From: Mobula hypostoma
Lineage: Eukaryota
Assembly (NCBI RefSeq): GCF_963921235.1
Contig: NC_086108.1
Span: forward strand, 20,460,001-20,524,000
DNA length: 64,000 bases
Direction of reading: 5' to 3'
Shown here: positions 1 through 54,497 of the stretch, in pieces
Layout: every line of letters begins with the position of its first letter
How positions within the stretch are numbered: position 1 is the first letter of the stretch
Translations under genes and position numbers: made by a program
Notes under the pieces: model-generated
What the model was told of the DNA's origin: nothing
Databases searched by the model: none
The model's input: the letters and a program-made list of their open reading frames with translations, nothing else

Positions 1-2350
1 AGCAGGCTATTCTAGACTGGGTATTGAGCAATGAGGAAAGGTTAATTAGCAATCTTGTCATGAGAGGCCCTTGGGTAAGAGAGACCATAATATGGTGGAA
101 TTCTTCATTAAGATGGAGAGTGACATAGTTAATTCAGAAACAAAGGTTCTGAACTTAAAGAAGGGTAACTTTGAAGGTATGAGACGTGAATTAGCTAAGA
201 TAGACTGGCAAATGACACTTAAAGGGTTGACGGTGGATATGCAATGGCAAGCATTTAAAGATCGCATGGATGAACTACAACAATTGTTCATCCCAGTTTG
301 GCAAAAGAATAAATCAGGGAAGGTAGTGCACCTGTGGCTGACAAGGGAAATTAGGGATAGTATCAATTCCAAAGAAGAAGCATAGAAATTAGCCAGAAAA
401 AGTGGCTCACCTGAGGACTGGGAGAAATTCAGAGTCCAGCAAAGGAGGACAAAGGGCTTAATTAGGAAAGGAAAAGAAGATTATGAGAGAAAACTGGCAG
501 GGAACATAAAAACTGACTGTAAAAGCTTTTATAGATACGTGAACAAAAAAAGATTGGTTAAGACAAATGTAGGTCCCCTACAGACAGAAACAGGTGAATT
601 GATTATTGGGAGCAAGGACATGGCAGACCAATTGAATAACTACTTTGGTTCTGTCAAAGGAGGACACAAACAATCTTCCGGAAATGGTAGGGGACCGAGG
701 GTCCAGTGAGATGGAGGAACTGAGGGAAATACATGTTAGTAGGGAAGTGGTGTTAGGTATTGAAGGGATTAAAGGCAGATAAATCCCCAGGGCCAGATGG
801 TCTGCATCCCAGAGTGCTTAAGGAAGTAGCCCAAGAAATAGTGGATGCATTAGTGATAATTTTTCAAAACTCTTTAGATTCTGGACTAGTTCCTGAGGAT
901 TGGAGGGTGGCTAATGTAACCCCACTTTTTAAAAAAGGAGGGAGAGAGAAACCGGGGAATTATAGACCGGTTAGCCTAACATCGGCGGTGGGGAAAATGC
1001 TAGAGTCAGTTATCAAAGATGTGATAACAGCACATTTGGAAAGCCGTGAAATCATCGGACAAAGTCAGCATGGATTTGTGAAAGGAAAGTCATGTCTGAC
1101 GAACCTCATAGAATTTTTTGAGGATGTAACTAGTAGAGTGGATAGGGGAGAACAAGTGGATGTGGTATATTTGGATTTTCAAAAGGCTTTTGACAAGGTC
1201 CCACACAGGAGATTAGTGTGCAAACTTAAAGCACACGGTATTGGGGGTAAGGTATTGATGTGGATAGAGAATTGGCTGGTAGACAGGAAGCAAAGAGTGG
1301 GAATAAACGGGACCTTTTCAGAATGGCAGGCAGTGACTACTGGGGTACTGCAAGGCTCAGTGCTGGGACCCCAGTTGTTTACAATATATATTAATGACTT
1401 AGATGAGGGAATTAAATGCAGCATCTCCAAATTTGCGGATGACACGAAGCTGGGCGGCAGTGTTAGCTGTGAGGAGGATGCTAAGAGGATGCAGGGTGAC
1501 TTGGATAGGTTAGGTGAGTGGGCAAATTCATGGCAGATGCAATTTAATGTGGATAAATGTGAGGTTATCCACTTTGGTGGCAAAAACAGGAAAACAGATT
1601 ATTATTTGAATGGTGGCCGATTAGGAAAAGGGGAGGTGCAATGAGACCTGCGTGTCATTATATATCAGTCATTGAAAGTGGGCATGCAGGTACAGCAGGC
1701 GGTGAAAAAGGCGAATGGTATGCTGGCATTCATAGCAAGAGGATTTGAGTACAGGAGCAGGGAGGTACTACTGCAGTTGTACAAGGCCTTGCTGAGACCA
1801 CACCTGGAGTATTGTGTGCAGTTTTGGTCCCCTAATCTGAGGAGAGACATCCTTGCCATGGAGGGAGTACAAAGAATGTTCACCAGATTGATTCCTGGGA
1901 CGCCAGGATTTTCATATGATGAAAGACTGGATTGACTAGGCTTATATTCGTTGGAATTTAGAAGATTGAGGGGGATCTTATTGAAACGTATAAAATCCTA
2001 AAGGAATTGGACGGGCTAGATGCAGGAAGATTGTTCCTGATATTGGGGAAGTCCAGAACGAGGGGTCACAGTTTGAGGGTAAAGGGGAAGCCTTTTAGGA
2101 CCGAGATTAGGAAAAACTTCTTCACACAGAGAGTGGTGAATCTGTGGAATTCTCTGCCACAGGAGGCCAGTTCATTGGCTATATTTAAGAGGGAGTTAGA
2201 TATGGCCCTTGTGGCTAAAGGGATCTGGTGGTATGGAGGGAAGGCTGGTACAGGGTTCTGAGTTGGATGATCAGCCATGATCATACTGAATGGCGGTGCA
2301 GGCTCAAAGGGCCAAATGGCCTACTCCTGCACCTATTTTCTATGTTTCTA
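1..2350 (+). mobile_element. CR1 LINE (family A), ORF2 EN-linker/RT to 3' end, disrupted; runs off the window start
   Basis: ORFs 71-385, 760-1644 ([32 protein letters not shown]), 1672-1935 and 2007-2261 are broken by stops and frameshifts. The CR1-type 3' UTR ends ...cctactcctgcacctattttctatgtttcta. Confidence 0.95.
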
Positions 2351-8994: not shown

Positions 8995-10064
8995 TCAGAG
9001 AAGCACAATCCGTCTGTTGTTGTGATTGGTGGTGAAAGCATCAATGATTTTCTGGATGTCAAGTGCTTTGATCCTCCGGCTGTTTATGGCCAACAGAGCC
9101 AAGTTGCTGTTCCGAGCATCGCCGCTGCTATTCCTTAGGTAGTTTTTGAGGCGTCTGAGGCAAGAGAAACTCCGTTCGCATGAGGCAGATGTCACAGGTA
9201 GAGTCAGTGATATGCAGATTAGTTTGTATAAATCTATAAATGCATCATGGTAGGGTCTCATTAGAGGTAGAAATTCCACTGTGTCATTCACTGTCTGTCT
9301 TTGCTTTTGTTTTCTTTCCAGCAGGTGCCGAACCTGATGTAGCTCTGCAGTCAGGTTCACTTCAGTCACTCCATAGTATTGGGCCACTCAACAAAGTTTT
9401 CCCTATTACCAGATCCATCATTCTCCCGGTGTCCTCGCTGGGCAATGCCTTGGCACGCAGTATGGCATAGAGACTCAACCACTGCTCTCATATACTCACG
9501 ATTTTCTTGGACAATCTTTGCATGTCCTTTGTTAAGCATATTTCCCAATCTTGAACCGTCTTGTTTTCTCAATTTGAATTCGGTCCATGCCTCCATAGCA
9601 AACTTATGAGCTGCACTTACATGGTGGGTTTTGAAAGCTTTCCGCCAGTTGCAGTAACCGGTGACAGTGAAGGTAGACTCAGAATGGAACCCATGTCCTC
9701 CACACAGGAAATGTCTGCATGCAAAGCAGAATGTAGTATCTTTCGTGATCAAATATTCTATCCAGGAGTACAGGTCAAACCAGCCACGAATAAAACTTCT
9801 TTGCTGATTGCCAAACCGTTGCGAAGGATACTTTTCCAATGCTGGCCGATGGGGTCCTTCCTCAGGCTGTTGGCTAACATCGCTAACAGTATTCCCACTC
9901 GCACTAGGAGCGGCTTCATCCACGTTCTCTTCTGAATCCCGTTCTGTTTCTTGTTCCTCTACTTCGCCCTCACACACCTTTGATGAACTGCCGTCGTCCT
10001 CATCCCCACTTACTTCTTTCTGCATGACACTTTCAATTAAGACAGGCTCAGGCTGAGACACCAC
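8995..10064 (-). pseudogene. hAT transposase remnant: N-terminal zinc finger joined out of frame to the C-terminal dimerisation domain; catalytic core absent
   Basis: Two overlapping ORFs in different frames meet at about 9385, with no room for the DDE core. Confidence 0.85.
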
Positions 10065-10175
10065 TGATTCCTCTGGATGAGGTCATTTTCTCACTAAAAA
10101 TCGATCCGTTTTTCACGCTGGCCAAAATAATGCCCGTGCCAGGTCCGCACTAGCTTGTAAAAGCACAATGTGTGT

Positions 10176-14105: not shown

Positions 14106-14253
14106 TCACTCTTCCTTCAGTTAGTCCTGACGAAGGGTCTCGGCCTGAAACGTCAACTGCACCTCTTCCTACAGAGGCTGCTTGGCTTGCTGCGTTCACC
14201 AGCAACTTTTATGTGTGTTGCTGAATTTCCAGCATCTGCAGAATTCCTATTGT
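14106..14253 (+). mobile_element. Short Penelope-like terminal repeat insertion with hammerhead motif
   Basis: A 13-bp TSD ttactcaggcaac lies at 14093-14105 and 14254-14266. The sequence matches PLE termini at 36691-36826 and 37675-37771. Confidence 0.85.
14122..14159 (+). ncRNA. Minimal type I hammerhead ribozyme motif
   Basis: tagtc-CTGACGA-agggtctcggcct-GAAA-cGTC-aactg. The core is intact; helix I has one mismatch. Confidence 0.7.
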
Positions 14254-14354
14254 TTACTCAGGCAACATCAGGTTGAGAGCATTAATTTACAAAGGAAGCC
14301 ACAAGCAAAAGAAGCACCAAGAAATTTAATTCACTTTAATGGGTAATGAAAGTT

Positions 14355-16090
14355 TAACAGATTTGACATTGTGGCATCTGCCCATCCCCCACATGAGCCA
14401 TCTGTTGTCGGCCCCCAACCAACACATATTCCACTCTCCCCTCCTACCCCTCCTCACAGTCCCCCACCCTGCTCTCATGACTATACCCCTTCCCCACACA
14501 AAATCACCACTGTGGGCTTCACAGCTGAACAGGTGAGAAGACAGCTGAAACGTCTCAACCCAAGCAAGGCTGCAGGACCGGATGGTGTCAGTACCAGGGT
14601 GCTCAAAGCTTGTGCCCCTCAGCTATGTGGAGTGCTTCGCCATGTATTCAACCTGAGCCTGAGGCTCCGGAAGGTTCCTGTACTGTGGAAGACGTCCTAC
14701 CTCGTCCCTGTGCCGAAGACACTGCACCCCAGCGGCCTCAATGACTACAGACCGGTGGCATTGATGTCCCACATCATGAAGACCCTGGAGAGACTTGTTC
14801 TGGAGCTGCTCCGGCCTATGGTCAGGCCACACTTAGATCCCCTCCAGTTCACCTACCAGCCCCGACTAGGAGTTGAGGATGCCATCATCTACCTGCTGAA
14901 CCGTGTCTACGCCCACCTGGACAAGCCAGCGAACACTGTGAGGGTCATGTTTTTTGACTTCTCCAGTGCGTTCAACACCATCCGCCCTGCTCTGCTGGGG
15001 GAGAAGCTGACAGCGATGCAGGTGGATGCTTCCCTGGTGTCATGGATTCTTGATTACCTGACTGGCAGACCACAGTACGTGTGCTTGCAAAACTGTGTGT
15101 CCAAAAGAGTGATCAGCAGCACTGGGGCTCCACAGGGGACTGTCTTGTCTCCCTTTCTCTTCACCATTTACACCTCGGACTTCAACTACTGCACAGAGTC
15201 TTGTCACCTTCAGAAGTTTTCAGATGACTCTGCCATAGTTGGATGCATCAGCAAGGGAGATGAGGCTGAGTACAGGGCTACAGTAGGAAACTTTGTCACA
15301 TGGTGTGAGCAGAATTATCTGCAGCTTAATGTGGAAAAGACTAAGGAGCTGGTGGTAGACCTGAGGAGAGCTAAGGTACTGGTGACCCCTGTTTCCATCC
15401 AGGGGGTCAGTGTGAACATGTTGGAGGATTACAAATACCTGGGGATATGAATTGACAATAAACTGGACTGGTCAAAGAACACTGAGGCTGTTTACAAGAA
15501 TGGTCAGAACCGTCTCTATTTCCTGAGGAGACTGAGGTCCTTTAACATCTGCCAGACGATGCTGAGGGTGTCCTACAAGTCTGTGGTGGCCAGTGCTATC
15601 ATGTTTGCTGTTGTGTGCTGGGGCAGCAGGCTGAGGGTAGCAGACACCAACAGAATCAACAAACTCATTCGTAAGATCAGTGATGTTGTGGGGATGGAAC
15701 TGGACTCTCTGACGGTGGTGTCTGAAAAGAGGATGCTGTCTAAGTTGCATGCCGTCTTGAACAATGTCTCCCATCCACTACATAATGGACTGGGTGGGCA
15801 CAGGAGTACATTCAGCCAGAGACTCATTCCACCGAGATGCAGCACTGAGCATCATAGGAAGTCATTCCTGCCTGTGGCCATCAAACTTTACAACTCCTCC
15901 CTTGAAGGGTCAGACACCTGAGCCAATAGGCTGGTCCTGGACTTATTTCATAATTTACTGGCATAATTTACATATTACTATTTAACTATTTATGGTTTTA
16001 TTACTATTTATTATTTATGGCGCAACTGTGACGAAAACCAATTCCCCCCGGGATCAATAAAGTATGACTATGACTACTATGACTATGACT
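14355..16090 (+). mobile_element. Rex1/Babar-type LINE, 5'-truncated, well-preserved RT
   Basis: ORF 14371-15450 ([33 protein letters not shown]) continues past a TGA into 15559-15921. It ends with aataaa and a (tatgac)n tail. Confidence 0.92.
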
Positions 16091-16659: not shown

Positions 16660-17344
16660 GATACCTAGTAGGCTGCCAAATACACTGAATGACTGTATTA
16701 GATGTAATTATTAATTCAGAGCATTTGGTCTTAAAATTTATGTAAATTATACACAGCATACTGCATAATTAAAGCTATCAAAATAAGTTTGTTTACATAT
16801 TAATTCTAGAGATTTTTAATTAAGCTTGCGCTGAAGAGCTTTATAACTGAGAATATTGAAAGTGAGTAAATTTGTTTTTGATTAAATTTTAAATATGTTT
16901 GTAAATCATGTATAAATGTAAATAGTTAATTACCTAATCCATATATAAATAATGGTATAATACAATGTACATTAATAGTTGATAATATACACTTATTTAT
17001 TAGGTTTTGAAGAGCAGTGTAATGAGTAAGTGTGAACGTATCTTTAAGATTGGGTGTCATACGGTGCAGCTGTTTGCCGCAATGCTGTATCAGATCCTAC
17101 TGATTAGTTTTGAAAATGGCCACCTCTAATGAAGAATGTTCTGTTAGCTAAGTAATAGCAACTGCAGTTTAGATGCAAAATTTTGAAATGTACAAACCAC
17201 ATGCTGTAATAATATTAGTTACACCCATAATAAGGCCTGCAGAATCGTGAACTGATCTCTTCAGTGGAAGTGACCAACTTAAGTCCAGTTGATACATAAA
17301 GAGTTTTGACAGGTTCTGAGATTTATTTTCTTCATATTTTTTAG

Positions 17345-17724
17345 ACTTTAAGGAAACATCAAGCTCCACTTTTAAGCAGCACAATGAACATTCACTGATG
17401 TCACACTTTCTATCACCCACCAGCAGCATGGATTTCCCAATGGGAATTCTCTTGTTAGGAATCTTGATGGAAGAGCAGCCAAAAAAAAACAGACCAAAGG
17501 TGGATAAATTAGTTCTAGAAATGGATGTGGCAAAAACACTAAAAGCTCCCAAGTATGATTATGATAGTGACAAAGATCCTGATTTTCTAACCTTACAGTA
17601 TTCTGCAAGAACTAAATTATTAAATGCTTTAGGAAAACAACATTACGAAAGATATCCTAGAAAGATGAACAAAAAGTTTCCTTGTGATTTTTTCAAAAGC
17701 GAATACAGCTCTCACTCTTCATGA
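17345..17724 (+). CDS. Candidate terminal coding exon of an unidentified host gene (~125 codons)
   Basis: Polypyrimidine tract ttttcttcatattttttAG ends at 17344. The frame (D)FKETSSSTFKQHNEHSLMSHFLSP...LQYSARTKLLNALGKQHYERYP...SSHSS* is open to TGA 17722-17724, in non-repetitive AT-rich DNA. Confidence 0.45.
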
Positions 17725-18092: not shown

Positions 18093-20914
18093 TGTTGTGG
18101 GAATGATGTTGTGGGAATAACAGAGACATGGCTTCAAGTGGACAGGGCCTGGGAAATGAATATTCAAGGGTATACGTCCTATCAAAAGGACAGACTGATG
18201 GGCAGAGGGGGTGGGGTGGCTCTGTTGGTGAGGAATGATATCAGTCCCTTGCAAGGGGGGACATAGAATCAGGAGATGTAGAGTCAGTATGGATAGAACT
18301 GAGAAATTCTAAGGGTAGAAAGACCCTAATGGGAGTTATCTACAGGCCCCCAAACAGTGGTCTGGATGTAGGGTGTAAGTTGAACCAAGAGTTAAAATTG
18401 GCATGTCACAAAGGTAATGCTACAGTTGTTATGGGGGACTTCAACATGCAGGTAGACTGGAGGAATCAGGTTGGTACTGGACCCCAAGAAAAGGAGTTTG
18501 TGGAGTCCCTCTGAGAAGAATTCTTAGAACAGCTTGTACTGGAGCCTACCAGAGAGAATGCAATTCTAGATTTAGTGTTGTGCAATGAACGGGATTTGAG
18601 CAGGGATCTCGAGGTAAAGGAGCCATTAGGAGGTAGTGACCATAACATGATAAATTTTAATCTACAATTTGAGAGGGAGAAGGGAAACTCAGAAGTGTCA
18701 GTATTACAGTTGAACAAAGGGAACTATGGTGCTATGAGGGAGGAGCTGGCCAAAGTTCAATGGAACAATACCCTAGCAGGGATGACAGTGGAACAGCAAT
18801 GGCAAATGTTTCTGGGAATAATGCGGAAGATGCAGGATCAGTTCATTCCAAAGAGGAAAAGAGATCCTAAGGAGAGTAAGGGGAGGCCGTGGCTGACAAG
18901 GGAAGTAATGGACAGTATAAAAATAAAAGAGAAGAAGTATAACATAGCAAAGACGAGTGGGAAGCCAGAGGATTGGGAAACTTTTAAAGAGCAACAGAAG
19001 GTAACTAAAAAGGCAATACGCGGAGAAAAAATGAGGTATGAAGGTAAACTAGCCAAGAATATAAAGGAGGATTGTACAAGCTTCTTTAGGTATGTGAAAA
19101 GGAAAAAAATAGTTAAGACCAAAATTGGGCCCTTGAAGACAGAAGCAAGTGAATTTATTATGGGGAACAAGGAAATGGCAGATGAGTTGAACAGGTACTT
19201 TGGATCTGTCTTCACTAGGGAAGACACAAACAATCTCCCAGATGTAATAGTGGCCAAAGGACCTAGGGTAATGGATGAATTGAAGGAAATTTATATTAGG
19301 CAGGAAATGGTGTTGGATAGGCTGTTGGGTCTGAAGGCTTGTAAGTCCCCGGGACCTGATGGTCTGCATCCCAGGGTACTTAAGGAGGTGGCTTTAGAAA
19401 TCATGGATGCATTGGTAATCATTTTCCAATGTTCTATAGATTCAGGATCAGTTCCTGTGGATTGGAGGGTGGCTAATATTGTCCCTCTCTTCAAGAAGGG
19501 AGCAAGAGAGAAAACAGGGAATTATAGACTGGTTAGCCTGATGTCAGTGGTGGGAAAGGTGCTGGAGTCAATTATAAAAGATGAAATTACGACATATCTG
19601 GATAGTAGTAACAGGATTGGTCCGAGTCAGCATGGATTTACGAAGGGGAAATTGTGCTTGATTAATCTTCTGGAATTTTTTGAGGATGTAACTATGAAAT
19701 TGGACAAGGGAGAGCCAGTGGATGTGGTGTACCTGGACTTTCAGAAAGCCTTTGATAAAGTCCCACATAGGAGATTAGTGGGCAAAATTAGGGCACATGG
19801 TATTGGGGGCAGAGTACTGACATGGATTAAAAATTGGATGGCTGACAGAAAACAAAGGGTAGCGATTAACGGGTCCCTTTCGGAATGGCAGGCGGTGACC
19901 AGTGGGGTACCACAGGGTTCACTGCTGGGACCACAGCTGTTTACAATATATATTAATGATTTAGATGAGGGAATTAAAAGTAACATTAGCAAATTTGCCG
20001 ATGACACAAAGCTGGGTGGCAGTGTGAAATGTGAAGAGGATGTTATGAAAATGCAGGGTGACTTGGACAGGCTGGGTGATTGGGCAGATGCATGGCAGAT
20101 GCAGTTTAATGTGGATAAATGTGAGGTTATCTACTTTGGTGGTAAGAATGGGAAGGCAGATTATTATCTAAATGGAGTCAAGTTATGAAAAGGGGAAGCA
20201 CAACGAGATCTAGGTGTTCTTGTACATCAGTCACTGAAAACAAACATGCAAGTACAGCAGGCAGTGAAGAAAACTAATGGCATGCTGGCCTTCATAACAA
20301 GGAGAATTGAGTATAAGAGCAAAGAGGTCCTTCTGCAGCTGTACAGGGCCCTGGTGAGACCACACCTGGAGTGCCGTTTTGGTCTCCAAATTTGAGGAAG
20401 GACATTCTTGATATTGAGGGAGTGCAGTGTAGGTTCACAAGATTAATTCCTGGGATGGCGGGACTGTCATACGTCGAAAGATTGGAGCGACTGGACTTGT
20501 ATACTCTGGAATTTAGAAGGCTGAGAGGGGATCTTATTGAAACATATAAGATTATTAAGGGATTGGACACGCTGCAGGCAGGAAGCATGTTCCCGCTGAT
20601 GGGTGAGTCCAGAACCAGAGGCCACAGTTTAAGAATAAGGAGTAGGCCATTTAGAACGGAGTTGAGGAAAAACTTTTTCACCCACAGAGTGGTGGATATA
20701 TGGAATGCTCTGCCTCAGAAGGCTGTGGAGGCCAAGTCTCTGGATGCTTTCAAAAAAGAGATAGATACAGCTCTTAAAGATAGCGGAATCAAAGGTTATG
20801 GGGATAGGGCAGGAACTGGATACTGATAGTGGATGATCAGCCATGATCACAGTGAATGGCGATGCTGGCTCGTAGGGCTGAATGGCCTACTCCTGCACCT
20901 ATTGTCTATTGTCT
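18093..20914 (+). mobile_element. CR1 LINE (family A-like), 5'-truncated within EN, inserted antisense in the family B copy
   Basis: EN motifs (ITETW, YRPP, GDFNM, SDH), RT ORF 18575-20188 (FADD), C-terminal ORF 20371-20826 and a (ctattgt)n tail. The host CR1 resumes at 20915. Confidence 0.95.
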
Positions 20915-24864: not shown

Positions 24865-25361
24865 TTAATCACATGTACAGTTGAATATTTATTTTGTGCA
24901 ATATTCAGCAAAATGCTTTGCAGGAAAGCACTGTGCAGTGCTGAGCAGTATTAAGACCATTAAGATTCTTTAATGATGATTGCTCCAGCCTGTCAATTAA
25001 CAGCTCAGGGCACATTGTCCATGAGGAAAGGTGCAGCCGAGTTCAATCCATTGATCTTTGTTTTCTTCTTCAGACTGGATAAAAGGTGTTAAAAGCTGCC
25101 AAACATTGTTGGGTGATCACAACTTCACCATTGTATGTTCTTTATCAAACCAGTATGAACTGTTCTGTACAATTTCAGAAGATTGTTGTTAACTATTTCC
25201 TCTCAGTTAATGTAGCATGAGAAATAACTGATGGGCTATCTGGACAACTGCTTCCTTTGTTTAGCATGCAACTTCAATTTACTCTTCCTCAATGGTGAGT
25301 AGTACTCCATCTGGTACATCCTTTCCAAATTCAATATCTACGGTAAACCAGTGAACATTGT

Positions 25362-25900
25362 AACACATACACAAAATGCTGGCAGAACTCAGCAGTATCT
25401 ATGGAAATGAATAGATAGTTCAAGTTTTGGGCCAAGCCCCTTCTTTAGGGCTGGAAAGGAAGGGGGAAGATGCCAGAATAAGAAGGTGGGGCAGGGATGG
25501 GGAAGGAGGCTAGCAAGAAGGTGATAGGTGATGCCGGGTGGGTGGGAAGGTCAAGGGCTGGAAAAGAAGGACTCTGATAGCAAAGGAGAGTGGGTCATAA
25601 GAGAAAGGGAAGGAGGAGGGGACCCAGGGAGAAATAATAGGCAGGTGAGAAGAGGTAAAAGGTCAGAGAGGGGAATAGAGGAAGGGGAGGATGGGGGAGG
25701 CAATTTGTTTACCAGAGGGAGAAATTGATATTCATGCCATCGGGTTAGAGGCCATCCAGATGGAATACAAGGTGTTGCTCCCCACCCTGAGGGTGGCCTC
25801 ATGTTGGCACAGGAGGAGGCCGGGGACCGATGATTCGGAACAGGAATGGGGATCGGAATTAATATATTTGGCCACCGGGAAGTTCAGTTGTTGGAGATGG
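25362..25900 (-). mobile_element. Penelope-like element 3' part (GIY-YIG C-terminus and terminal repeat), degraded
   Basis: Similar to 40130-40680 and 51038-51616. A degenerate hammerhead region lies at about 25415-25452. Confidence 0.8.
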
Positions 25901-28373: not shown

Positions 28374-29879
28374 GTAAGTTATGGCATTGTAAACAAACTT
28401 GGTTTTTGGTAAGGAATTGGATTACAGCTTTTCAATATTTGCATTTTAACTTCATTTCATAATGGTTAGAGAATTTCAGTTTGAATTGTATGACTTGAAT
28501 TAAAGTTGCTTCACCTTAAGAACATGCTTAAGATATAGTCAACTTTTACTGTTTAATATCAGACATAGTCATCTGTCTGACCCCTAAATTACTGTTGTAT
28601 TCTTGGACGTAATACTGCATCCTTCATATGTTATATTCTGGGTAATAATCTGCAGCGTAGTCATGTTTCCACATGCTCCAAGTTTTGTTGTATAACTTTG
28701 CCTCAAGAAAGTCAACTAACAAAAATACAATCAATACACTCTGAATTAAAGAGCATTTTGCTCAATTTTCCCTTTTGGGTATTTAAAACATTCCATAGAA
28801 AGTAGAGGGACGTTGATTTGCCAAAGCTATTTGGCACCTCATACAGTCCAGACAACCACATGGCCAGTATGGCAAGTAACAAGACAGCTGGGATTGCTTT
28901 ATGGAAACACACTAGGGTATAAATTATTGTCTTCACGAGAGAAAAAATGGAAAATTAAAGAAAAAGTTGTACCTGTTGTTGAAAAGCTGACACTTATTTT
29001 GTAGAACAGATTGGTTTTATTTAAGAATTGGCCCATATTTCATTACAATTAGACAGAAAATAGGTACTTTTAAATGAGATTTCTCATTATTGAAACAGCT
29101 CAAATACAAAAAAGCTCCCGAGATGACACTAATAAAAGCTGAGATAATTATAAATGGACCTATACATGTAAAAGCAATAGAGAAAAAAAAAGATGGACTG
29201 TACAAACCTGGTACCCACAAGTGCCTCAATAGAGCTCGTGGGCAGCATTTACTGGTATTTCAAAAAACATCCGAAAACATTCCCAGATTCTGAACAGATG
29301 TGGTACAAGAGAGTCTTTCTATTTTTCACCTTCTGAGGCTTTCTTGCCACTAAAGAGCTTGGCTCATATATTAGACTCGACATAGGTGGTACCACTGAAG
29401 CATTTGAAAAGACCCAGTTGTACTAATTCCCTGAGTAAATGTAGGTCAAAAAATTCCTGGCCCAATCCTTTCTTTATCCTTGGTTTGGCAAAAGGAATAT
29501 CAATTTGAACTGAGAATAAGCTCCTTCAACATCTAGTTTGGATTTTCATCAGTTCTTTCCCCAACGTCTCAAATATTTAATTGAATATTAATGTTAAATC
29601 ATATGACATTAAGAAAAACATAGTTAACAACTTCATTCAATTGACATCCCAAAATTGTCTGAAATAAAAGCAGAAAATGTTGGGGAACTCAGCAGGCCAG
29701 GATGCATCTGTGAAGGGAAACAGAGTTGGACACATTGGCCAAGGTTTCTGCTTTTACTTCAGATAATTATAACATGATTTGAGTGAAGTTGAAAAAATAT
29801 ATTTTTAGCATTACAGTCCAAGATGAAGGGTTGTCCATTCTGAAACATTAATTCTGTTTCTGCCCAGGTACCAAAAAAT

Positions 29880-36600: not shown

Positions 36601-36650
36601 ACTAGATGGGTTGAAGGGCCTGTATCTGTGCTGTACTTTTTTATGACTCT
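33620..36650 (+). mobile_element. CR1 LINE (family C), degraded, interrupted by an antisense CR1
   Basis: KSLGPDKVFP, NYRPV, DFSKAFD and FADD segments, ORF 36004-36438, and a CR1 3' UTR at about 36600-36650. Confidence 0.88.
34233..34995 (-). mobile_element. CR1 family B 3' fragment nested in family C
   Basis: ORFs 34322-34525 and 34593-34979 match 17839-18129 and 20916-21565. A (tagaaaca)-type tail lies at 34233. Confidence 0.92.
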
Positions 36651-36788
36651 ACGTCATTGATAACTACAAAAGCAGAGTTATCCATAATAACACAAACACA
36701 AGGAAATCTGCAGATGCTGGAAATTCAAGCAACACACACAAAATGCTGGTGAACGCAGCAGGCCAGGCAGCATCTATAGGAAGAAGTA

Positions 36789-36826
36789 CAGTCGACGTTT
36801 CGGGCTGAGACCCTTCGTCAGGACTG
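36789..36826 (-). ncRNA. Minimal type I hammerhead ribozyme motif (best-preserved copy)
   Basis: Minus strand reads CAGUC-CUGACGA-A-GGGU(CUCA)GCCC-GAAA-C-GUC-GACUG: perfect 5-bp helix I, 4-bp helix II and palindromic ACGU helix III. Confidence 0.82.
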
Positions 36827-37674
36827 GGGTAGGAGGTAGAAATGGGAAGTGCTGGGTGTGGGAACTATGAGGTTGGTGGCAGTGGATGGGAGATCCCCAG
36901 AGCTGATAAGGTTGGTGATGGTGTGGGAGACAATGGCCTGGTGCTCCTTAGTGGGTTCATGATCGAGGGGTAAATAAGAGGAGGTATCAGCGAGTTGTCG
37001 CTGTGCCTCAGCAAGGTAGAGGTCAGTATGTCAGACTACAACAGCGTCCCCCTTATCAGTAGATTTTATAGTAAGGTTAGGATTGGTGTGGAGAAAGTGG
37101 AGAGCAGAGCGTTCAGGAGGAGTGAGGTTGGAATTGGAACAAGGTGTGGTGATGGTGACGGTTGATGTCCTGACTCGCTGAGGTGTGGGCGAAGGGGGAC
37201 AAAGCTAAGGCTTAGTGAGGACAGAGCACTCTCACCCAGAGAGTTGAAGGTTGGAGCGGATGGTAAAGACCCGGCACGGATGAGAGCTGGGATCAGAGGG
37301 GGAAGGGAGGCTGGAAGTGTCAGTGGAGAGGGGAGGGTTGGGGTGAGAGGAAGATGGAGCCTCTGAGGGTCCAGGAGCTGATGATGGGATCTGAGGGAGA
37401 CGGGGTTGCAGAGTGGTGGTGGGGGAAGGGGAGATGGGAGTCACAATAGCAGCACATAAAGACCCGGCCTGGAGTTCAAGGCTGGAGGTTGTGCAATCAC
37501 TTTGAAGGTATCCATGGTCATTGGAACCTGCATTGATGGTGCTGGAGTCTGGGTTTTGAATATGCCCTGGGTTGGTAGAGCCACCAAGATCGACAGCGGG
37601 GTCCGCAATCTGAAGTTCATGCCTGCTAGCTTCGGAGCCAGCAGGCTCTGGGCTCTGCAGATGGAAGATCTTGC

Positions 37675-37710
37675 GTCCTGACGAAGGGTCTCGGCCCAAA
37701 ACGTTGACTG
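37675..37710 (+). ncRNA. Hammerhead motif with mutated core (GAAA>AAAA)
   Basis: gtcCTGACGAagggtctcggcccAAAAcgttgactg. Confidence 0.6.
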
Positions 37711-37868
37711 TACTTCTTCCTATAGATGCTGCCTGGCCTGCTGCATTCCACCAGCATTTTGTGTGTGTTGCTTATCCACAATAAAACTAGTCAACAGCTT
37801 GCTAAGTGTAGTTCATCTTACATTTTTAATTTAATAAAGGCAATAACATGATAATTAGGTTTATACAT

Positions 37869-38043
37869 AACCACAAAATACTCTGCAGATGCTGAGGTCA
37901 AAGCAACACTCACAACACGCTGGAGGAACTCAGCAGGTCCGGCAGCATCCATGGAAACGATCAGTCAATGTTTCGGGCTGGAACGTTGACTGATCATTTC
38001 CACGGATGCTGCCCGACCTGCTGAGTTCCTCCAGCGTGTTGTA
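37869..38043. repeat. PLE-derived fold-back (hairpin) element
   Basis: About 60-bp inverted arms 37912-37972 / 37982-38042. A 12-bp TSD aggtttatacat lies at 37857-37868 and 38044-38055. Confidence 0.88.
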
Positions 38044-38469
38044 AGGTTTATACATGATATTGGTCAATAATTCACACACTGAAATCCACAAGACAGTGAG
38101 GTGATTTGCTTTTCATTACATCTCATGGACTGAGAGGTCCTAAGGAATATCTACACGATACATGGGGCATCTACAGTTTCTATTAGGATTTGCTCTAATT
38201 AACAACCGTGTCTCTTTTCATGGGTTGAATGGCTCCACTGGGCTCCAATAAGATTCTGTATTTCTTTACTCGTATCATGAGATTTACCAGAAAATTATTC
38301 TTTTGGGAAATGGCTGCTGGAAGGTTGGAGAAGGGGTGGGGAGTGATGGGAGGAAGCAAAATGAAGGGGTATTTCTAATGATATATAAAACATTCAGAGA
38401 AGTCGAGCATTTTATAACTTCATAGAAAAACACAGAAAATATCACGTCCTCTTTCATATCAAGCATTGT

Positions 38470-40124: not shown

Positions 40125-41397
40125 AAACATGAGAAATTCTGCAGATGCTGGAAATCCAAAGTTACGCACAAAATGCTGGAGGAACTCAGCAGGTCAGGCA
40201 GCATCTATGGAAATGAATAAACAGTTGACATTTCATGCTGAGACCCTTCTCCTGGATTGGAAAGGAAGGGGGAAGATGCCAGAATAAAAATTTGGGGAAA
40301 GGGGAAGGTGATAGGTGAAGCCAAGTAGGCAGGAAAGGTAAAGGGCTGTAGTGAAAGGAATCTGGCAGGAGAGGAGAGTGGACCACAGGGGAAAGGGAAG
40401 GAGGAGGGGACCCAGGGGGAAATGATAAGCGATTGAGAAGTGTTAAGAGGCCACAGTGGGGAATAAAAGGGGAGGGGTGGGGAGGTTCAATTTATTTTTA
40501 CCAGGAGCAATCAATATTCATGCCGTCAGGTTGGAGGCTACCTAGATGGAATATAAAATATTGCTACTCCACCTTAAGGGTGCCCTCATCATGGCACAAG
40601 AGGAGACCATGCTGCAGTGTGTCAGAATGGGAATGGGAATTAAAATGTTGACAACCAGGAAGTTCTGCTTTTGGCGGATGGAAGCGGGTTCGCAATCTAC
40701 GACGGGTCTCACCAATGTAGAGGATGTCACATCGGGAGTACCAGACACAATAGACAACCCCAGCAGATTCACAGAGGAAGTATTTCCTCAGCTGGAAATA
40801 CTGTTTGGAGCCCTGAATGGAGGTGAGGGAGAGATGAATGGGCAGGTGGAGCACTTTGCTGCTTGCAGGGGTAAGTGCCAGGAGGGAAGTTAGTGGGGAG
40901 GGATCAATGGACAAGGGAATCACTGAGGGAGCTATCCCTGTAGAAAGCGTGGGGGGGGAGATGAAGATATTTTTAGTAGTAGGATCTCTTTGGACGTGGC
41001 AGAAGTAGTGGAGAATAATATGTTGGATGTGAGGGTTCATGGGTTGTTTGGGAAATGGAGGAGATGTGGGTGAAGGCAGCATCAATGGTGAGGAAGGCAA
41101 ATACTGTTTTTTGAAGGAGGAGGACATCTACATTCTGGGAACAGATGTGGCAGAGGCGAAGGAACTAAGAAAAGGAAATAATATTTGTACAGGAGGCAGG
41201 GTGACAAGAGGTGTAGTCAAGATAACTGGGAATTATTAGCTTTATAAAAGATATTGGTAGACGTTTTGTCTCCAGAGATGGTGGTAGATAGATTGAGAAA
41301 TTTAAAGGCAGGGTGGAAGTTGGAGGCAAAGTTGATGAAATTAACGAGCTCAGCATGGGTGCATGAAGCAGCACCAATGCAGTCATCAATGTACTGG
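40125..41397 (-). mobile_element. Penelope-like element: RT (YIDD), GIY-YIG endonuclease and terminal repeat, disrupted
   Basis: YIDDCIG (ORF 41217-41522), GVVYCVWYSRCDILYIGETRRRL (ORF 40564-41127) and a PLE terminus at 40125-40260. Confidence 0.9.
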
Positions 41398-41670
41398 TTT
41401 TCATATTCAATGTTACAACTTGTGCAACAGATTGACTGCAAAGAATGGACTTTGAGGGCTAAAGACATTTCATTCGATATTTCTTTCAGTTCTAAGATAC
41501 TAGTTCTAAAAAAAGTTGACACTGCAGTAAGCTTTTTTTATATAAAAAGATAACATTTAAGTGAGAATTGCCTTTTAAATGTTTGCTTTTTAGTTTTGAA
41601 GTTCATAACATTTGTTTACTGCAAACTAAAGCGAGAGTTTGAAAAAAGGATCTAGTGCTTTCCTGGGGTA

Positions 41671-42180
41671 TATGATGAATGAACTCATCTTGGGCTTCTA
41701 AGCGGGTACAGGTATCAATTATAACCAAAGTTTCTGTTGCAAACTTTGCCATCTTCATCAGGGATGCTGCCTGGGAATGTCTAGTCTGGTGGTATTTTTA
41801 TCCCCATCGTCCATCCCTCCTGACTGGTTAGTCCTCATGCAATCGGGTTTCTGCGCTTACTCCTTGTTTACAATCAAATTCCAGTTCTTACTTAGAGCGA
41901 GACCTCCGTCTTTGTTAAAATTCTTATCCCCTAGTTTTATTTCAATGGCTTCCTTTTAATAAAGACAAAGGAATTTGATTGTAAACAAGGTGGGAGAGCG
42001 GAAACCTGATTGGAAGAGGTCTAACCAGTCATGATGGACAAATGATGGGGTATAAATACAACCAGACTAGACATGCCGAGGCATCATCCTTGATGAAGGT
42101 GGTAGAGTTTGTCATTGAAATGTGGGTTCTAATCGATACCTGTACCTGGCTGAAAGTCTGAAAAGAGTTTATTTGTCATT
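41671..42180. mobile_element. Second PLE family: inverted pair of 3' ends
   Basis: 41675-41885 is the approximate reverse complement of 41970-42175. The minus strand of the centre reads KEAIEIKLGDKNFNKDGGLALSKNWNLIV (GIY-YIG C-terminus). Both arms carry decayed CTGATGA..GAAA motifs. Confidence 0.82.
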
Positions 42181-46550: not shown

Positions 46551-47563
46551 TACATTTTTATTCTGGCTTCTGGCCTCCCTTCTGATGAAAACTTTCAGAC
46601 TGAGATGGTGACTGTTTATATCCCTCCATAAATGCTGCCTGAATTCTGTTTATGTTGTGCAGATAAACATCAGATATTTATTTTAAACTGATGGAAATAT
46701 AGATATATTGGATCACCATGCTGATACGATATTAACTTTCAGTTATTTGTATTTCATTCAAAGGATTAACATGACCAAAATATAAAAACTCATGTGTTAC
46801 TTTCCTTCACAATCTATTTAAACCTTACCTTCATCTATGGATTTGACTCTAATATTTTTGGGTCTTTTCAAGAAAAGTTGACATTCTATCCACCAGTCCC
46901 TCAAAAGATAGGGTAAAATAGCAAACGTTAGTCTCTTCATGCTTATGCGTTTAATGGCTTTTGGAATCAAATATACATATAGAGAATTGTTCAGACATCT
47001 AAATGCACTTCATGTTAATTTATTATCATTTATTTACACATGGTATTCTATTAAAATGTGCCAGCATTAAAAGAAGCATTAAATATGTAATTCATTTTTC
47101 GCCCTTGACTGCTTGTTAAAGATGCCCATATGTGAAGAAGATGTGTAATTTTCTATCTGCCCTTTTCCTTCATTACAAGGAATTGTCTGTCTATCTGTAC
47201 CTAGATACCTCGTGATCTCTTCCTAACATTGTGACACTCAGTAACTGTGATCTTCTCACCCCATTAGGCTGAATTTTCCTGACACATTGCTGGTGGTTTT
47301 GATGAGAACCAATGATTCTCTGACAACTTTCATGTGTTGTCAGATGCTGAGTTTCTATTCTATCATTGGAAATGGTATCAACAGTGGCAGATCAATGAGT
47401 CTAAGAGAGTATGAGAATTTTTTTTTCCTCACATCTGGCCTTCAATTTTAGGTCAGGAAGAAATGACATAGAATTGCCAATCATTCAAATTCTGTGGAAA
47501 AAGTGCCTCACTCACTTTAAGTTCCTTAAGTTTAAATTTTTGATATTTTAAGACACACACAGA

Positions 47564-50070: not shown

Positions 50071-51037
50071 TTGGAAAATGAGGACAAATTGATTAAATTA
50101 CGCTGCAATGACATCTTGATTCAAATACTTCCTTGGATATAAGCAACTGCTAGAGCAGAGCCCATCTACAGGAACATAGAGCATAGATCAGTACAGCATA
50201 GGAACAGGCCATTCAGCCCTCAATGTTGTGCCAAACCACCTAAAAAGCAAATCCAAAACACCCAAACACTAATCCCTCCTATCTACACCAAGTCCATATC
50301 CCTCCATGTGCCTATCCAAACGTCTCTTAAAAGCCTCTAATGTATTTGCCACTACTACCATACCAGACAGCACAGTCTAGGCATCCATGACTCTCTGAGT
50401 AAAAAATCTACCCCTCAGATCCCCCTTGAATCTACCCGCTTGCACCTTCAATGCATGCACTCTGGTACTGGACATTTCAACCCTGGGAAACAGATACTCT
50501 CTGTCCACTCTATCTATACCTCTCAATCTTATAAACATCTATCAGATTTCCCCTCAGCCTCCAGCTGAAAGTAATCCAAGCTTATCCAGCCTCTCATGAT
50601 AGCACATGCCCTCTAAACCAGGCAACATCCTGGTAAACCTCTTCTGCGCCCTCTCCAAAGCGTCAACAACCTTCCTATAGTGGGGTTACCAGAACTGTAT
50701 GCAATACTCTGGATGTGGCCAAACCATCATTTTATAAAGTTGCAACATAACTTCTAGACTTTTGAACTCAGTGCCTTGACTAATAAAAGCAAGCATTCCA
50801 TAAGCCTTCTTAACCACCTTATCAACCTGTGGAGCCAATTTCAAGGAGATATGAACTTGGATCCCAAGATCTCTCTGTCCAGCATTACTGGTAAGGATCT
50901 CGCCCCTAACAGTGTACTGTCTCCTTGTGTTTGCTCTACCATGGTCCAACACCTTGCATTTATCTGGGTTAAACTGCATCAGTCATTCCTTTGCCCATAT
51001 CCATAACTGATCTATATATGCGCTGTATTCTTTGCCA

Positions 51038-51616
51038 CACTCACAACATGCTGGAGGAGATCAGCAGGTTGGGCAGCATCTGTGGAAAAGATCGGTCAAC
51101 GTTTCGGGACAGAACCCTTCGTCAGGACTGTAGGGGGAAGGGGCAGAGGCCCTATAAAGAAGGTGGTGGGAGGGTGGGAAGGAGAAGGCTGGTAGGTTCC
51201 AGGTGAAAAACCAGTAAGGGGAAAGATAAAGGGGTGGGGGAAGGGAGGCAGGGAGGTGATAGGCAGGAAAGGTGAGGAAAGAATAGGGGAAAACACAATG
51301 GGTAGTAGGAGGAGGCGGAACCAAGAGGGAGGTGGTAGGCAGCTGGGGGAGGAGGCAGAGTGAAATAGGGATAGGGGAAGGGAGGGGGAGGGAATTAACG
51401 GAAGTTGGAGAATTCTATGTTCATACCAAGGGGCTGGAGACTACCTAGACGGTATATGAGGTGTTGCTCCTCCAACCTGAGTTTAGCTTCATCATGGCAG
51501 TAGAGGAGGCCATGTATGGACATATCTGAATGGGAGTGGGAAGCAGAGTTGAAGTGGGTGGCTACTGGGAGATCCTGTCTGTTTTGGCGGACGGAGCGGA
51601 GGTGCTCGACGAAGCA
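51038..51616 (-). mobile_element. Penelope-like 3' fragment with hammerhead
   Basis: An 8-bp TSD ctttgcca lies at 51030-51037 and 51617-51624. Homologous to 40125-40700. Confidence 0.87.
51093..51130 (-). ncRNA. Minimal type I hammerhead ribozyme motif
   Basis: Minus strand reads CAGUC-CUGACGA-AGGGUUCUGUCCC-GAAA-C-GUU-GACCG; the core is intact. Confidence 0.72.
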
Positions 51617-53269
51617 CTTTGCCAGTCTTCTATACGATTCACAATTCCACCAGTCTTGGTATCATCCACAAACTTACTAACCCACCCATCTACATTTTCA
51701 TCCAGATCATTTTTATACATCATAAACAGCAGAGGCCTCAGCACAGATCTCTGCAGAACACTGTAATTTACTGACCTCCAGCTTCAATAAGTCCCTTCAA
51801 CCACTACTGTCTTCTATGCGCAAGCCAGTTTGAATCTGAACGGCCAGCTGTGACCCCATGCATCTTAGTCTTTTGGAGTACCCTCCCATGAGGGGCTTTG
51901 TCAAACACCTTACTAAATCAATAAAACAACATCTACTACCCTACTCTGATCAATCTCTCTCATCGCCTTGTCAAAAAACTCAATCAAGTTGGTAAAGAAT
52001 GACTTGCCATGTACAAAGCCAGGCTGTCTCTCCCTAATTAGGCCATGGGTTTCCAAATACTCATATATCCTATCCCTAAGAATTTTCTCCAGCAATTTCC
52101 CTACAACTGATGTGAGACTCACTGGTCTATAGTTCCCATGATTTTCCCTTGTTCCATTCTTAAATAGAGGTACATTAGCCACTCACTAGTCCTCTGGAAC
52201 CTAGCCTGTGGCTAGAGAGGACATGAAGATACTGGTGAAGTGCCCAGCAATCTAGTCTCTTTCCTCCTTCAAAAATCTGGGGTAAGTCCCATCAGGCCCA
52301 GGGAACGTGCCACCTTAATACTCATTAGGAGGCCCCACATTTCCTCTTCCTTGACCTCTAAATTTCCTAACGTATTTCTACACTCAGCACTGATCTCCTG
52401 GTCCTCTATATTTCCTTGCTAAATACTGAAGCAAAGTACTCAACTTTAAAGACCATCTGTGCAATAAGATATGCCTTGATACATCTCCTTTTGATGGTCA
52501 ATAACCTCTTTCTGCTCCACTTTCATTTCCAGTGCTCTCACCATGGCTAAGGGCCCATCTCTTCCTGATAGTTTCCTAATATCCCAGCTGGTGGATACCC
52601 CACAATCCCAAGAATACAGCATTGTAAGTAGTGGCCATCCAATAGAGATAGGAACTGAAAGATTTCTCTCTCGCAAAGCAAGGTTTTAGAGTTTGTTACC
52701 AGTAATGAGACCTTGAAGGAGTGCAGAACACTGAATTAGAAGATAAAGTGAGCAAGAGCAAAGGTGAGGAATGCAGTAGTCAGTAGGATTCCACGGTGAG
52801 GGAGCATAAAGATTCTTCTGAATGTGAGTCTTGCATTATTGTTGGTTTCCTGGTGCAGGGCAAAATGTCACAGGAATTGCGCAGAATATTGGAATGGGGG
52901 AACCAGCAACTGAGAACAGTAGGGAAGATGTTGATTGGAACAGTAGGGGAGATGTTAATATCCCACAGGCAGAGTTTCAGGAGCACAGATAAAGCAATAA
53001 AGTAGGATCTTGTAGGTAGCAATCTCCGGATTACTTCCAGTGAGAGACAGTAAAAAGGGAAAGGTCAGGGAGAAGAAAGAAGTGTACAAATTAATGTTAG
53101 TGATGGGGAAGAAAAAAATACAGTATTAAGGAGAAAACAGACAATACAAGGAATAGAAAAATGAGTTTGAAGTGCATGTATGTTAATACACAGATTCCAG
53201 AGCTGCAAACACACAATATGAACTGAGGACTTAAGTGCTCATAGTAAATAGGAAAGGAACAATGGAACT

Positions 53270-54497
53270 ACGTTCGAATGCTGTTCATAGACTTCAGTTC
53301 AGCATTCAACACAATCATTCCTCAGAAACTGATTGGAAAGCTGAGCCTACTGGGCCTGAACACCTCCCTCTGCAACTGGATCCTAGATTTCCTGACTGTG
53401 AGATCTCAGTCAGTCCGGATTGGAAGCAGCATCTCCAACACCATCACACAGAGCATGGGGGCCCCCCAGGGCTGTGTGCTCAGTCCACTGCTGTTCACTC
53501 TGCTGACCCACAACAGTGCAGCAACACACAGCTCAAACCACATCATCAAGTTCGCCGATGACACGACCGTGATGGGTCTCATCAGCAAGAATGATGAGTC
53601 AGCATACAGAGAGGAGGTGCAGCAGCTAACAGACTGGTGCAGAGCCAACAACCTGTCTCTGAATGTGAACAAAACAAAAGAGACGGTTGTTGACTTCAGG
53701 AGGACATGGAGTGACCACTCTTCGCTGAACATCAAAGACTCCTCTGTAGAGATCGTTAAAAGCACCAAATTTCTTAGTGTTCACCTGGCGGAGAATCTCA
53801 CCTGGTCCCTCGACACCAGCTCCATAGCAAAGAAAGCCCAGCAGTGTCTCTACTTTCTGCGAAGGCTGAGAAAAGTCCATCTCCCACCCCCCCACCCCAT
53901 CCTCACCACATTCTACAGAGGTTGTATTGAGAGCATCCTGAGCAGCTGCATCACTGCCTGGTTCGGAAATTGCACCATCTTGGATCGCAAGACCCTGCAG
54001 CGGATAGTGAGGTCAGCTGAGAAGATCATTGGGTTCTCTCTTCCCGCCATTACAGACATTTACACCACACACTGCATCCGCAAAGCAAACAACATTATGA
54101 AGGACCCCATGCACTCCTCATACAAACTCTTTTCCCTCCTGCCATCTGGCAAAAGGCACCAAAGCATTCGGGCTCTCACGACCAGACTTTCATCCCTCAA
54201 GCCATCAGACTTCTCAATACCCAGAGCCTGGACTGACACCAACCTACTGCCATCTACAGTGCCTATAGTCTTGTTTATATTATTTATTGTAATGCCTGCA
54301 CTGTTTTGTGCACCTTATGCAGTCCTGGGTAGGTCTGTATTCTAGAGTAGTTTTTGTGTTGCTTTTACGTAGTTCAGTGTAGTTTTTGTATTGTTTCATG
54401 TAGCACCATGGTCCTGAAAAATGTTGTCTTGTTTTTACTGTGTACTGTACCAGCAGTTATGGTTGAAATGACAGTAAAAAGTGACTTGACTTGACTT
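53270..54497 (+). mobile_element. Rex/Babar LINE, 5'-truncated RT with tail
   Basis: ORF 53278-54345 ([22 protein letters not shown]) and a (gactt)n tail. A GAACT repeat flanks it at 53265-53269 and 54498-54502. Confidence 0.92.

What the first reader, a model, noticed from the sequence alone, without database searches (positions are those of the whole stretch)
36789..36826. Dispersed minimal hammerhead ribozymes in PLE termini
Seen: minus strand CAGUC CUGACGA A GGGU-CUCA-GCCC GAAA C GUC^GACUG, with all core nucleotides and helices I and II. Helix III is the loopless palindrome ACGU. Related motifs lie at 14122-14159 (+), 37675-37710 (+) and 51093-51130 (-), with decayed ones near 25415, 29815, 40225 and 46580. 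Helix II loops vary while the GGG/CCC stem is largely kept. Established: PLE minimal type I hammerheads with palindromic helix III are thought to cleave as dimers. Inference: same-strand copies in a long pre-mRNA could pair and self-cleave. The class is known, but these instances are probably unannotated.
Basis: partly seen in the sequence, partly recalled or inferred. Interest (0 to 1): 0.72.

Follow-up and report, generated by a model that had tools for sequence, protein, structure and literature searches.

The report
Penelope-element minimal hammerhead, dead copy
The motif is a real small self-cutting-RNA signature of a known kind, carried at the end of a very common jumping gene in a ray-like fish, and at this spot it is most likely an inactive leftover.

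Summary
The motif is real. 36789-36826 (-) fits the published minimal type I hammerhead consensus of Penelope-like elements (PLEs). Only it and 51093-51130 (-) pass; 300 shuffles gave none. It ends a dead, internally deleted PLE insertion: 13-bp target duplication, tail, ORF piece 75% like a Mobula PLE protein, inverted pseudo-LTR. The family is huge in relatives (39,000-61,000 contigs per large run).

The two consensus copies lie 14.3 kb apart, and no host exon was found. Any read-through transcript pairs the focal motif with the antisense of its own inverted copy 850 nt away (34 of 38 nt at p≥0.98; forcing the ribozyme helices costs 49.5 kcal/mol). Even alone it prefers an inactive rod. Window copies show CpG decay and no compensatory pair (0 of 9 pairs).

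The class was described in 2014 (PMC4209133), and this scan noted the same family repeatedly elsewhere in this and other genomes. Ordinary; low interest.

The parts
36789..36826 (-). Focal minimal type I hammerhead: helix I arms 36826-36822 and 36793-36789, core 36821-36815, extra A 36814, helix II 36813-36802, GAAA 36801-36798, CGU 36797-36795, C17 36794; predicted site 36794/36793
36691..36788 (-). Rest of the pseudo-LTR; about 36691-36726 is the tail that the inverted copy lacks
36827..37674 (-). PLE ORF piece (N-terminal region, decayed DKG motif, ending at FYLLP) with stops and frameshifts; about 73 residues missing internally; RT core, endonuclease and 3' UTR absent
   Evidence: 75% to P0004 32-149; 71% to P0005 24-177 and 74% to 251-347
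37675..37773 (+). Inverted, 5'-truncated pseudo-LTR with a dead hammerhead (G12A, C17U); 95% identical to 36727-36824 over 99 nt
36678..36690 (.). Left target-site duplication (13 bp, 1 mismatch to 37772-37784)
   Evidence: chance 28 of about 20,000 random window pairs
37772..37784 (.). Right target-site duplication
14106..14253 (+). Solo pseudo-LTR with tail, 13-bp exact target duplication; hammerhead 14122-14159 damaged by two CpG transitions
37869..38043 (.). Separate foldback insertion of two head-to-head pseudo-LTR 3' halves joined inside helix II; 12-bp exact target duplication
51034..51640 (-). 5'-truncated PLE: end of GIY-YIG domain, polypyrimidine 3' region, hammerhead 51093-51130 (3-bp helices, GUU site; meets the published consensus)
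   Evidence: (78% to P0001 289-369)
40125..41400 (-). Older truncated PLE: RT C-terminus, frameshifted linker Zn finger, GIY-YIG; hammerhead 40222-40259 with broken core
25357..25894 (-). Older truncated PLE end; hammerhead 25416-25453 with broken core
46581..46642 (+). Heavily decayed pseudo-LTR remnant
   Evidence: E 1.9e-4; not listed by the hammerhead-only model
29670..29850 (.). Old pseudo-LTR piece 29670-29712 (-) and a doubtful hammerhead-like remnant 29822-29850 (+)
   Evidence: E 6.5e-7; E 0.93

Best explanation
The 38 nt are the family's minimal hammerhead, copied passively as part of the pseudo-LTR of a very high-copy, endonuclease-bearing Penelope-like retrotransposon (Neptune/Nematis type) in a ray-like genome. 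Shown here: the motif, its PLE setting, the insertion anatomy and the decay pattern. Inferred from the class: in active tandem elements two nearby motifs swap helix I strands, pair ACGU with ACGU as an intermolecular helix III, and cut after GUC, probably helped by the element's own protein. Inferred for this locus: the copy is inert. It is intact only because it is fairly young, it has no near partner, it prefers an inactive rod, and read-through RNA would bury it in a duplex with its inverted twin.
For: Consensus match with null shuffles. PLE protein homology on the same strand next to four motifs. Target duplications, one-sided tail and inverted 5'-truncated pLTR as described for PLEs (passages). 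CpG transitions make up both non-terminal stem/core changes in 14122 and both core changes in 37675. In four runs of relatives, G12A stands at 7-20% and C17U at 3-12% of depth, like a CpG outside the ribozyme (7-16% at 36754). Monomer rod -14.5 kcal/mol, ensemble frequency 0.76; active homodimer -19.9 against -29.0 for two rods; sequestration cost 49.5 kcal/mol. Literature: monomer inactive and dimer weak; Anolis PLE motif cleaves only with protein, is dispensable for insertion in vitro, and no RNA-seq ends at the site.
Against: The focal copy has every core base intact. Folding energies leave out the tertiary energy of the hammerhead core, and co-transcriptional folding or proteins could change the picture. 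A transcript starting inside 36827-37674 would escape the duplex. No RNA ends could be read, and no RT tree was built for the clade.
Confidence: 0.88

Rival explanations
1. One reading: the minus-strand copies at 51093 and 36789 (or the plus-strand pair 14122 and 37675) meet in one long pre-mRNA, form a heterodimer and cut it.
For: Both minus-strand copies meet the published consensus and keep the ACGU palindrome. Their swapped helix I arms pair at 5 bp and 3+1 bp. GUU sites are common among published min-HHRs.
Against: 14,267 nt apart. Heterodimer -14.0 against -23.3 kcal/mol for two monomers, before any loop cost. The antisense of the inverted pLTR is made 850 nt earlier and pairs 34 of 38 nt. 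The plus pair has G12A in one partner and C11.1U plus G1.1A in the other, 23,516 nt apart. No host gene found. Even designed tandem dimers cut weakly, and 8 of 9 Xenopus dimer elements gave no product.
Confidence: 0.03
2. The focal motif is cut in trans: a short transcript starting inside the insertion pairs with one of the many family RNAs, or is refolded by PLE protein from an active element.
For: The family is very abundant and little diverged in relatives. A protein-assisted mode is published for one PLE. The core is intact.
Against: No evidence of a promoter or transcript here; the inactive rod and inactive dimer are favoured; no pile of loose ends at 36793/36794 among the 24 best of 1,058 rows.
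Confidence: 0.07
3. In this family the motif is no longer a catalyst. It is kept as a structural landmark at the pLTR edge (protein-binding, splice-acceptor or reverse-transcription pause site).
For: 5' breakpoints fall at the motif's 5' edge, not at the cleavage site: 36826 and 37675 in the window, and loose ends and strand-switch joints at 36816-36827 in relatives. An AG in helix I follows a polypyrimidine tract (rough acceptor scores 6.6 and 9.0 in two copies, 99th percentile 5.2 of 8,917 AGs). Catalysis was dispensable for insertion in vitro in the Anolis element.
Against: Every catalytic base matches the cross-phylum consensus. Only 1 of 8 non-CpG positions in the 3' half of the motif varies in relatives, against 11 of 13 positions just downstream, though other pLTR stretches are equally still. 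The pile at 36825-36827 is partly forced by this copy's deletion junction. This rival is compatible with the best explanation at this locus.
Confidence: 0.15

Closest known systems
Minimal type I hammerheads (min-HHR) of metazoan Penelope-like elements (Cervera and De la Pena 2014, PMC4209133)
   Same: CUGANGAH core, extra base before G10.1, G10.1-C11.1, GAAA-CG-UH with no helix III loop, short helix I, pLTR position, mostly solitary copies, and a second motif on the opposite strand nearby.
   Different: Host is a cartilaginous fish; a search of that paper's readable supplement found no shark, skate, Callorhinchus or Leucoraja (one file could not be searched). Helix II is 4 bp, at the short end of the published range.
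Hammerhead of PAc, Poseidon element of Anolis carolinensis (Frangieh et al. 2024, PMC11167929)
   Same: pLTR hammerhead, 30-40 nt optional tail, AT-rich insertion sites.
   Different: PAc is Penelope/Poseidon clade; this family has the CX2-5CxxC linker finger of Neptune/Nematis. No activity has been measured for this family.
Neptune/Nematis-type EN+ PLEs (Craig et al., bioRxiv 10.1101/2021.04.23.441226)
   Same: DKG motif, RT, linker Zn finger, C-terminal GIY-YIG, inverted 5'-truncated pLTR, tail on one end.
   Different: All window copies are fragments; the clade rests on motifs, with no RT tree.
Non-LTR retrozymes (bioRxiv 10.64898/2026.07.22.740005)
   Same: PLE-derived type I hammerheads; reported in the one chondrichthyan sampled.
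   Different: Retrozymes are tandem arrays with a motif in each unit; the window copies are dispersed or inverted.

Membership tests
PLE min-HHR | CUGANGAH core with an extra base before G10.1, and G10.1-C11.1 | tested here: met
   against the consensus; met by 36789 and 51093, broken in the other copies
PLE min-HHR | GAAA, palindromic 15.2/16.2, no helix III loop, UH site | tested here: met
   GAAA-CG-UC in the focal copy
PLE min-HHR | Type I topology with short helix I and a helix II hairpin | tested here: met
   5 bp and 4 bp
PLE min-HHR | Located in a PLE pseudo-LTR | tested here: met
PLE min-HHR | Compensatory changes across family consensuses | tested here: inconclusive
   0 of 9 pairs changed on both sides in 6 decayed window copies; helix II and the 5' arm not listed; no genome held
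PLE min-HHR | Self-cleavage as a dimer | not testable with these tools
   all 24 runs listed were contigs; folding disfavours it here
Neptune/Nematis-type EN+ PLE | RT preceded by the DKG motif | tested here: met
   window 37177-36824 is 75% identical to P0004, which has DKG and RVT_1 at E 9.8e-5, below Pfam's cut-off
Neptune/Nematis-type EN+ PLE | C-terminal GIY-YIG endonuclease | tested here: met
   P0001 GIY-YIG E 4.6e-4, 20.9 bits against a 22.6 cut-off; window remnants 45% and 78% to it; the window ORF alone had no Pfam hit
Neptune/Nematis-type EN+ PLE | CX2-5CxxC Zn finger in the RT-EN linker | tested here: met
   intact in P0001; frameshifted remnant near 40.8 kb; definition
Neptune/Nematis-type EN+ PLE | Inverted 5'-truncated pLTR and one-sided 30-40 bp tail | tested here: met
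Neptune/Nematis-type EN+ PLE | Placement in an RT phylogeny | not tested
   no reference clade sequences at hand
Non-LTR retrozyme | Head-to-tail tandem units, each with a hammerhead | tested here: not met
   window copies are dispersed or inverted; a 132-nt go-back joint in 4 contigs of run X20 hints at tandems elsewhere
Rfam hammerhead families | Score against the Rfam covariance models | tested here: not met
   no hammerhead among 24 matches up to E 10

The most novel reading that the evidence does not exclude
Because this ribozyme-bearing pLTR is so abundant and young in rays and sharks, intact copies in host transcripts could dimerise in trans or be switched on by PLE protein. That would be a genome-wide, retrotransposon-gated RNA cutting load, held off by a built-in inactive rod and by inverted-copy duplexes. 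The focal copy would be one potential site.
Probability: 0.05. Interest if true: 0.65.

Novelty: new member of a known kind. Interest (0 to 1): 0.14.

Why it matters
As found, it matters little: one more instance of a motif known from PLEs since 2014, in a dead insertion. The open question for the class is what PLE hammerheads do in vivo. This single locus does not make that more testable, although the family's size in cartilaginous fishes suits a genome-wide test of whether insertion ends cluster at the cleavage site. Three literature searches listed no paper on this motif in sharks or rays beyond the 2026 retrozyme preprint's one chondrichthyan; most subscription journals are not held.

Tried and rejected
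No whole genome is held, so copy number and family-wide covariation could not be measured directly. Pattern scans gave 14 viral and 21 metagenome stretches; none of the 35 matched the pLTR model or the PLE proteins, so all were dropped as chance. Rfam's miRNA and psbJ hits at 37909-38045 are explained by the foldback insertion.

Host-gene search: 119 ORFs against Pfam gave only hAT-transposon families and three weak hits below cut-off. ORFs of 45-57 aa (138 of 252 unmasked ORFs) were not scanned. The ORF at 17344-17721 had no longer homologue. Four splice-bounded candidates had no Pfam hit. This does not exclude a giant intron.

RNA: no RNA holder on record was listed, and all 24 runs were contigs, so ends, strand and expression could not be read. 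No listed contig spans the laid stretch. The variant table shows 40 of 44 rows and none at 36802-36826, apparently because places near contig ends are not listed, so helix II was not measured.

Lunse et al. (PMC5785218) is not held; it is known here only through the review PMC6765202. The elasmobranch search was swamped by hammerhead-shark papers. One script timed out with no output.

Full report
Observation. A strict descriptor found only this locus; 100 dinucleotide shuffles gave a mean of 0.05. The consensus printed in the supplement of PMC4209133, turned into a descriptor, found 2 loci in the window, 36789 and 51093, both minus strand, and none in 300 shuffles. Rfam listed no hammerhead among 24 matches up to E 10.

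The other copies. A profile of the repeat end found 10 stretches with E below 0.001. Against the focal motif, 14122 has C11.1U and G1.1A; 37675 has G12A, C17U and a cut helix I arm; 51093 has C17U, a helix I mismatch and a 3-bp helix II; 40222 and 25416 have 8 and 11 changes including core bases. G12 is the general base (passage), so 37675 cannot catalyse. GUU sites are common in the published alignment, so C17U alone does not disqualify 51093. The remnant near 46580 is supported only through its pLTR, and the one near 29815 is not significant (E 0.93).

What carries it. The sequence next to the focal motif is a PLE ORF piece: 37177-36824 is 75% identical to a Mobula hypostoma protein (P0004) that has the DKG motif and an RT domain, and 37663-37211 is 71% identical to a Hemitrygon akajei protein. 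About 73 residues are missing between those blocks, and everything after FYLLP (RT core, endonuclease, 3' UTR) is missing, so the ORF piece abuts the ribozyme. The motifs at 40222, 51093 and 25416 follow GIY-YIG remnants that match P0001 (Mobula) and P0002 (Hypanus). P0001 has the CX2-5CxxC linker finger that marks Neptune and Nematis; a frameshifted remnant lies near 40.8 kb. The host is therefore inferred to be a ray-like fish, and the clade call rests on motifs only.

Anatomy of the insertion. 36691-37771 is bounded by a 13-bp duplication with one mismatch (28 of about 20,000 random window pairs share such a match). It holds tail and pLTR on the minus strand, the ORF piece, and an inverted, 5'-truncated, tailless pLTR at 37675-37773 that is 95% identical over 99 nt. 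This is the arrangement described for PLE insertions (passages). The 14122 copy is a separate solo pLTR with a 13-bp exact duplication, and 37869-38043 is a separate foldback with a 12-bp exact duplication.

Family. Laying four coded runs on 36650-36880 placed 52,109, 60,773, 38,977 and 8,374 contigs (the last run is only guessed to be RNA). These are relatives' copies; no listed contig spans the stretch. In the part of the motif that the table shows (36789-36801), 5 of 6 rows are CpG transitions: G12A 7-20%, C17U 3-12%, G16.2A 4-12%, C15.2U 4-11%, G1.1A 4-10%. A CpG outside the motif shows 7-16%. The sixth row, U1.4A at 47% in one run, has no visible partner change. Eight of the 38 bases sit in CpGs, so inserted copies decay fast. 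Only 1 of 8 non-CpG positions varies, against 11 of 13 positions just downstream, which suggests constraint in master lineages; other pLTR stretches are equally still, so this is weak. In six window copies no pair of helix I or II changes on both sides (0 of 9), a test with little power.

Mechanism. For the class: a S. mansoni min-HHR was inactive as a monomer and weakly active as a dimer or trimer. The Anolis element's motif cleaved only with the element's protein, was not needed for insertion in vitro, and left no RNA-seq ends at its site. One of nine Xenopus dimer elements cleaved. For this copy: the monomer folds into a rod in which G5-A6-C7-G8 pairs with C15.2-G16.2-U16.1-C17 (-14.5 kcal/mol, frequency 0.76), 4 kcal/mol below the open-core form. 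The active homodimer scores -19.9 against -29.0 for two rods; the 51093+36789 heterodimer scores -14.0 against -23.3. These figures omit core tertiary energy.

The long pre-mRNA idea. The only pair meeting the consensus is 14,267 nt apart. A minus-strand transcript from 51 kb would first copy the antisense of the inverted pLTR. Folding 37800-36670 pairs 34 of the 38 motif bases with it at probability 0.98 or more, and forcing helices I and II costs 49.5 kcal/mol. The plus-strand pair is 23,516 nt apart and damaged on both sides. No host exon was found, though a large intron cannot be excluded. Among the 24 best of 1,058 loose-end rows none lies at the cleavage site; they lie at the 3' termini (36689-36704), at subfamily differences, and at the motif's 5' edge. 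RNA ends could not be read.

Comparison and novelty. It works like, and on every sequence feature tested belongs to, the PLE min-HHR class of Cervera and De la Pena. Covariation was inconclusive and cleavage untestable. It is not a retrozyme here, since no tandem array is present. Earlier notes of this scan describe the same family: 31 fit 'hammerhead' in this genome, and 7 of the 8 shown concern it; 3 more come from other genomes. These are unchecked notes and did not set the score.

Papers seen. PMC4209133: parts 1-2 of 4, a term search of one supplementary file and part 2 of 3 of it; one file could not be searched. PMC11167929: parts 1-2 of 4. bioRxiv 10.64898/2026.07.22.740005: parts 1-2 of 5 and passages; its supplements are closed and may name the chondrichthyan families. 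bioRxiv 10.1101/2021.04.23.441226, PMC6765202 and PMC6155905: passages. Lunse et al.: not held, seen as a reference only. Hammerhead numbering is the standard one, from recall.

Verdict. Real motif, correct class, known kind, most likely inert at this locus. Interest 0.14.

Noticed in passing
window 37869-38043: TSD-bounded foldback of two pLTR 3' halves joined inside helix II; a 137-nt near-perfect hairpin (-114.9 kcal/mol, z -21.9), a likely dsRNA substrate if transcribed.
   Followed up: partly
window 36826 and 37675; runs at 36816-36827: 5' breakpoints, loose ends and strand-switch joints cluster at the 5' edge of the motif, about 35 nt upstream of the cleavage site; partly forced by this copy's junction.
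   Followed up: partly
window 51128-51160 and 25451-25480 (-): A polypyrimidine tract ends in CAG inside helix I and scores as a strong splice acceptor on a rough matrix; the Drosophila virilis Penelope intron ends at the same place.
   Followed up: partly
run X20 laid on window 36694-36825: Four contigs go back 132 nt from 36825 to 36694, suggesting head-to-tail tandems of the hammerhead-bearing unit in a relative.
   Followed up: no
window 36691 and 36704: Two preferred 3' termini of the family, 13 nt apart, in relatives' contigs; may mark reverse-transcription start sites.
   Followed up: no
window 41672-42179: A 508-nt self-inverted element (72% arm identity), MITE-like.
   Followed up: no
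window 8995-10082 (-): hAT transposase remnants (Dimer_Tnp_hAT E 1.2e-11; DUF4371 E 1.9e-6).
   Followed up: no
window 17320-17724 (+): 134-codon open frame in unique DNA with no Pfam hit and no longer homologue; unexplained.
   Followed up: partly
window 757-1644, 14350-15921, 18515-20826, 53248-54345 and others: About half the window is repeat-masked, mostly LINE reverse-transcriptase fragments that look CR1- and L2/Rex-like (labels from recall).
   Followed up: no
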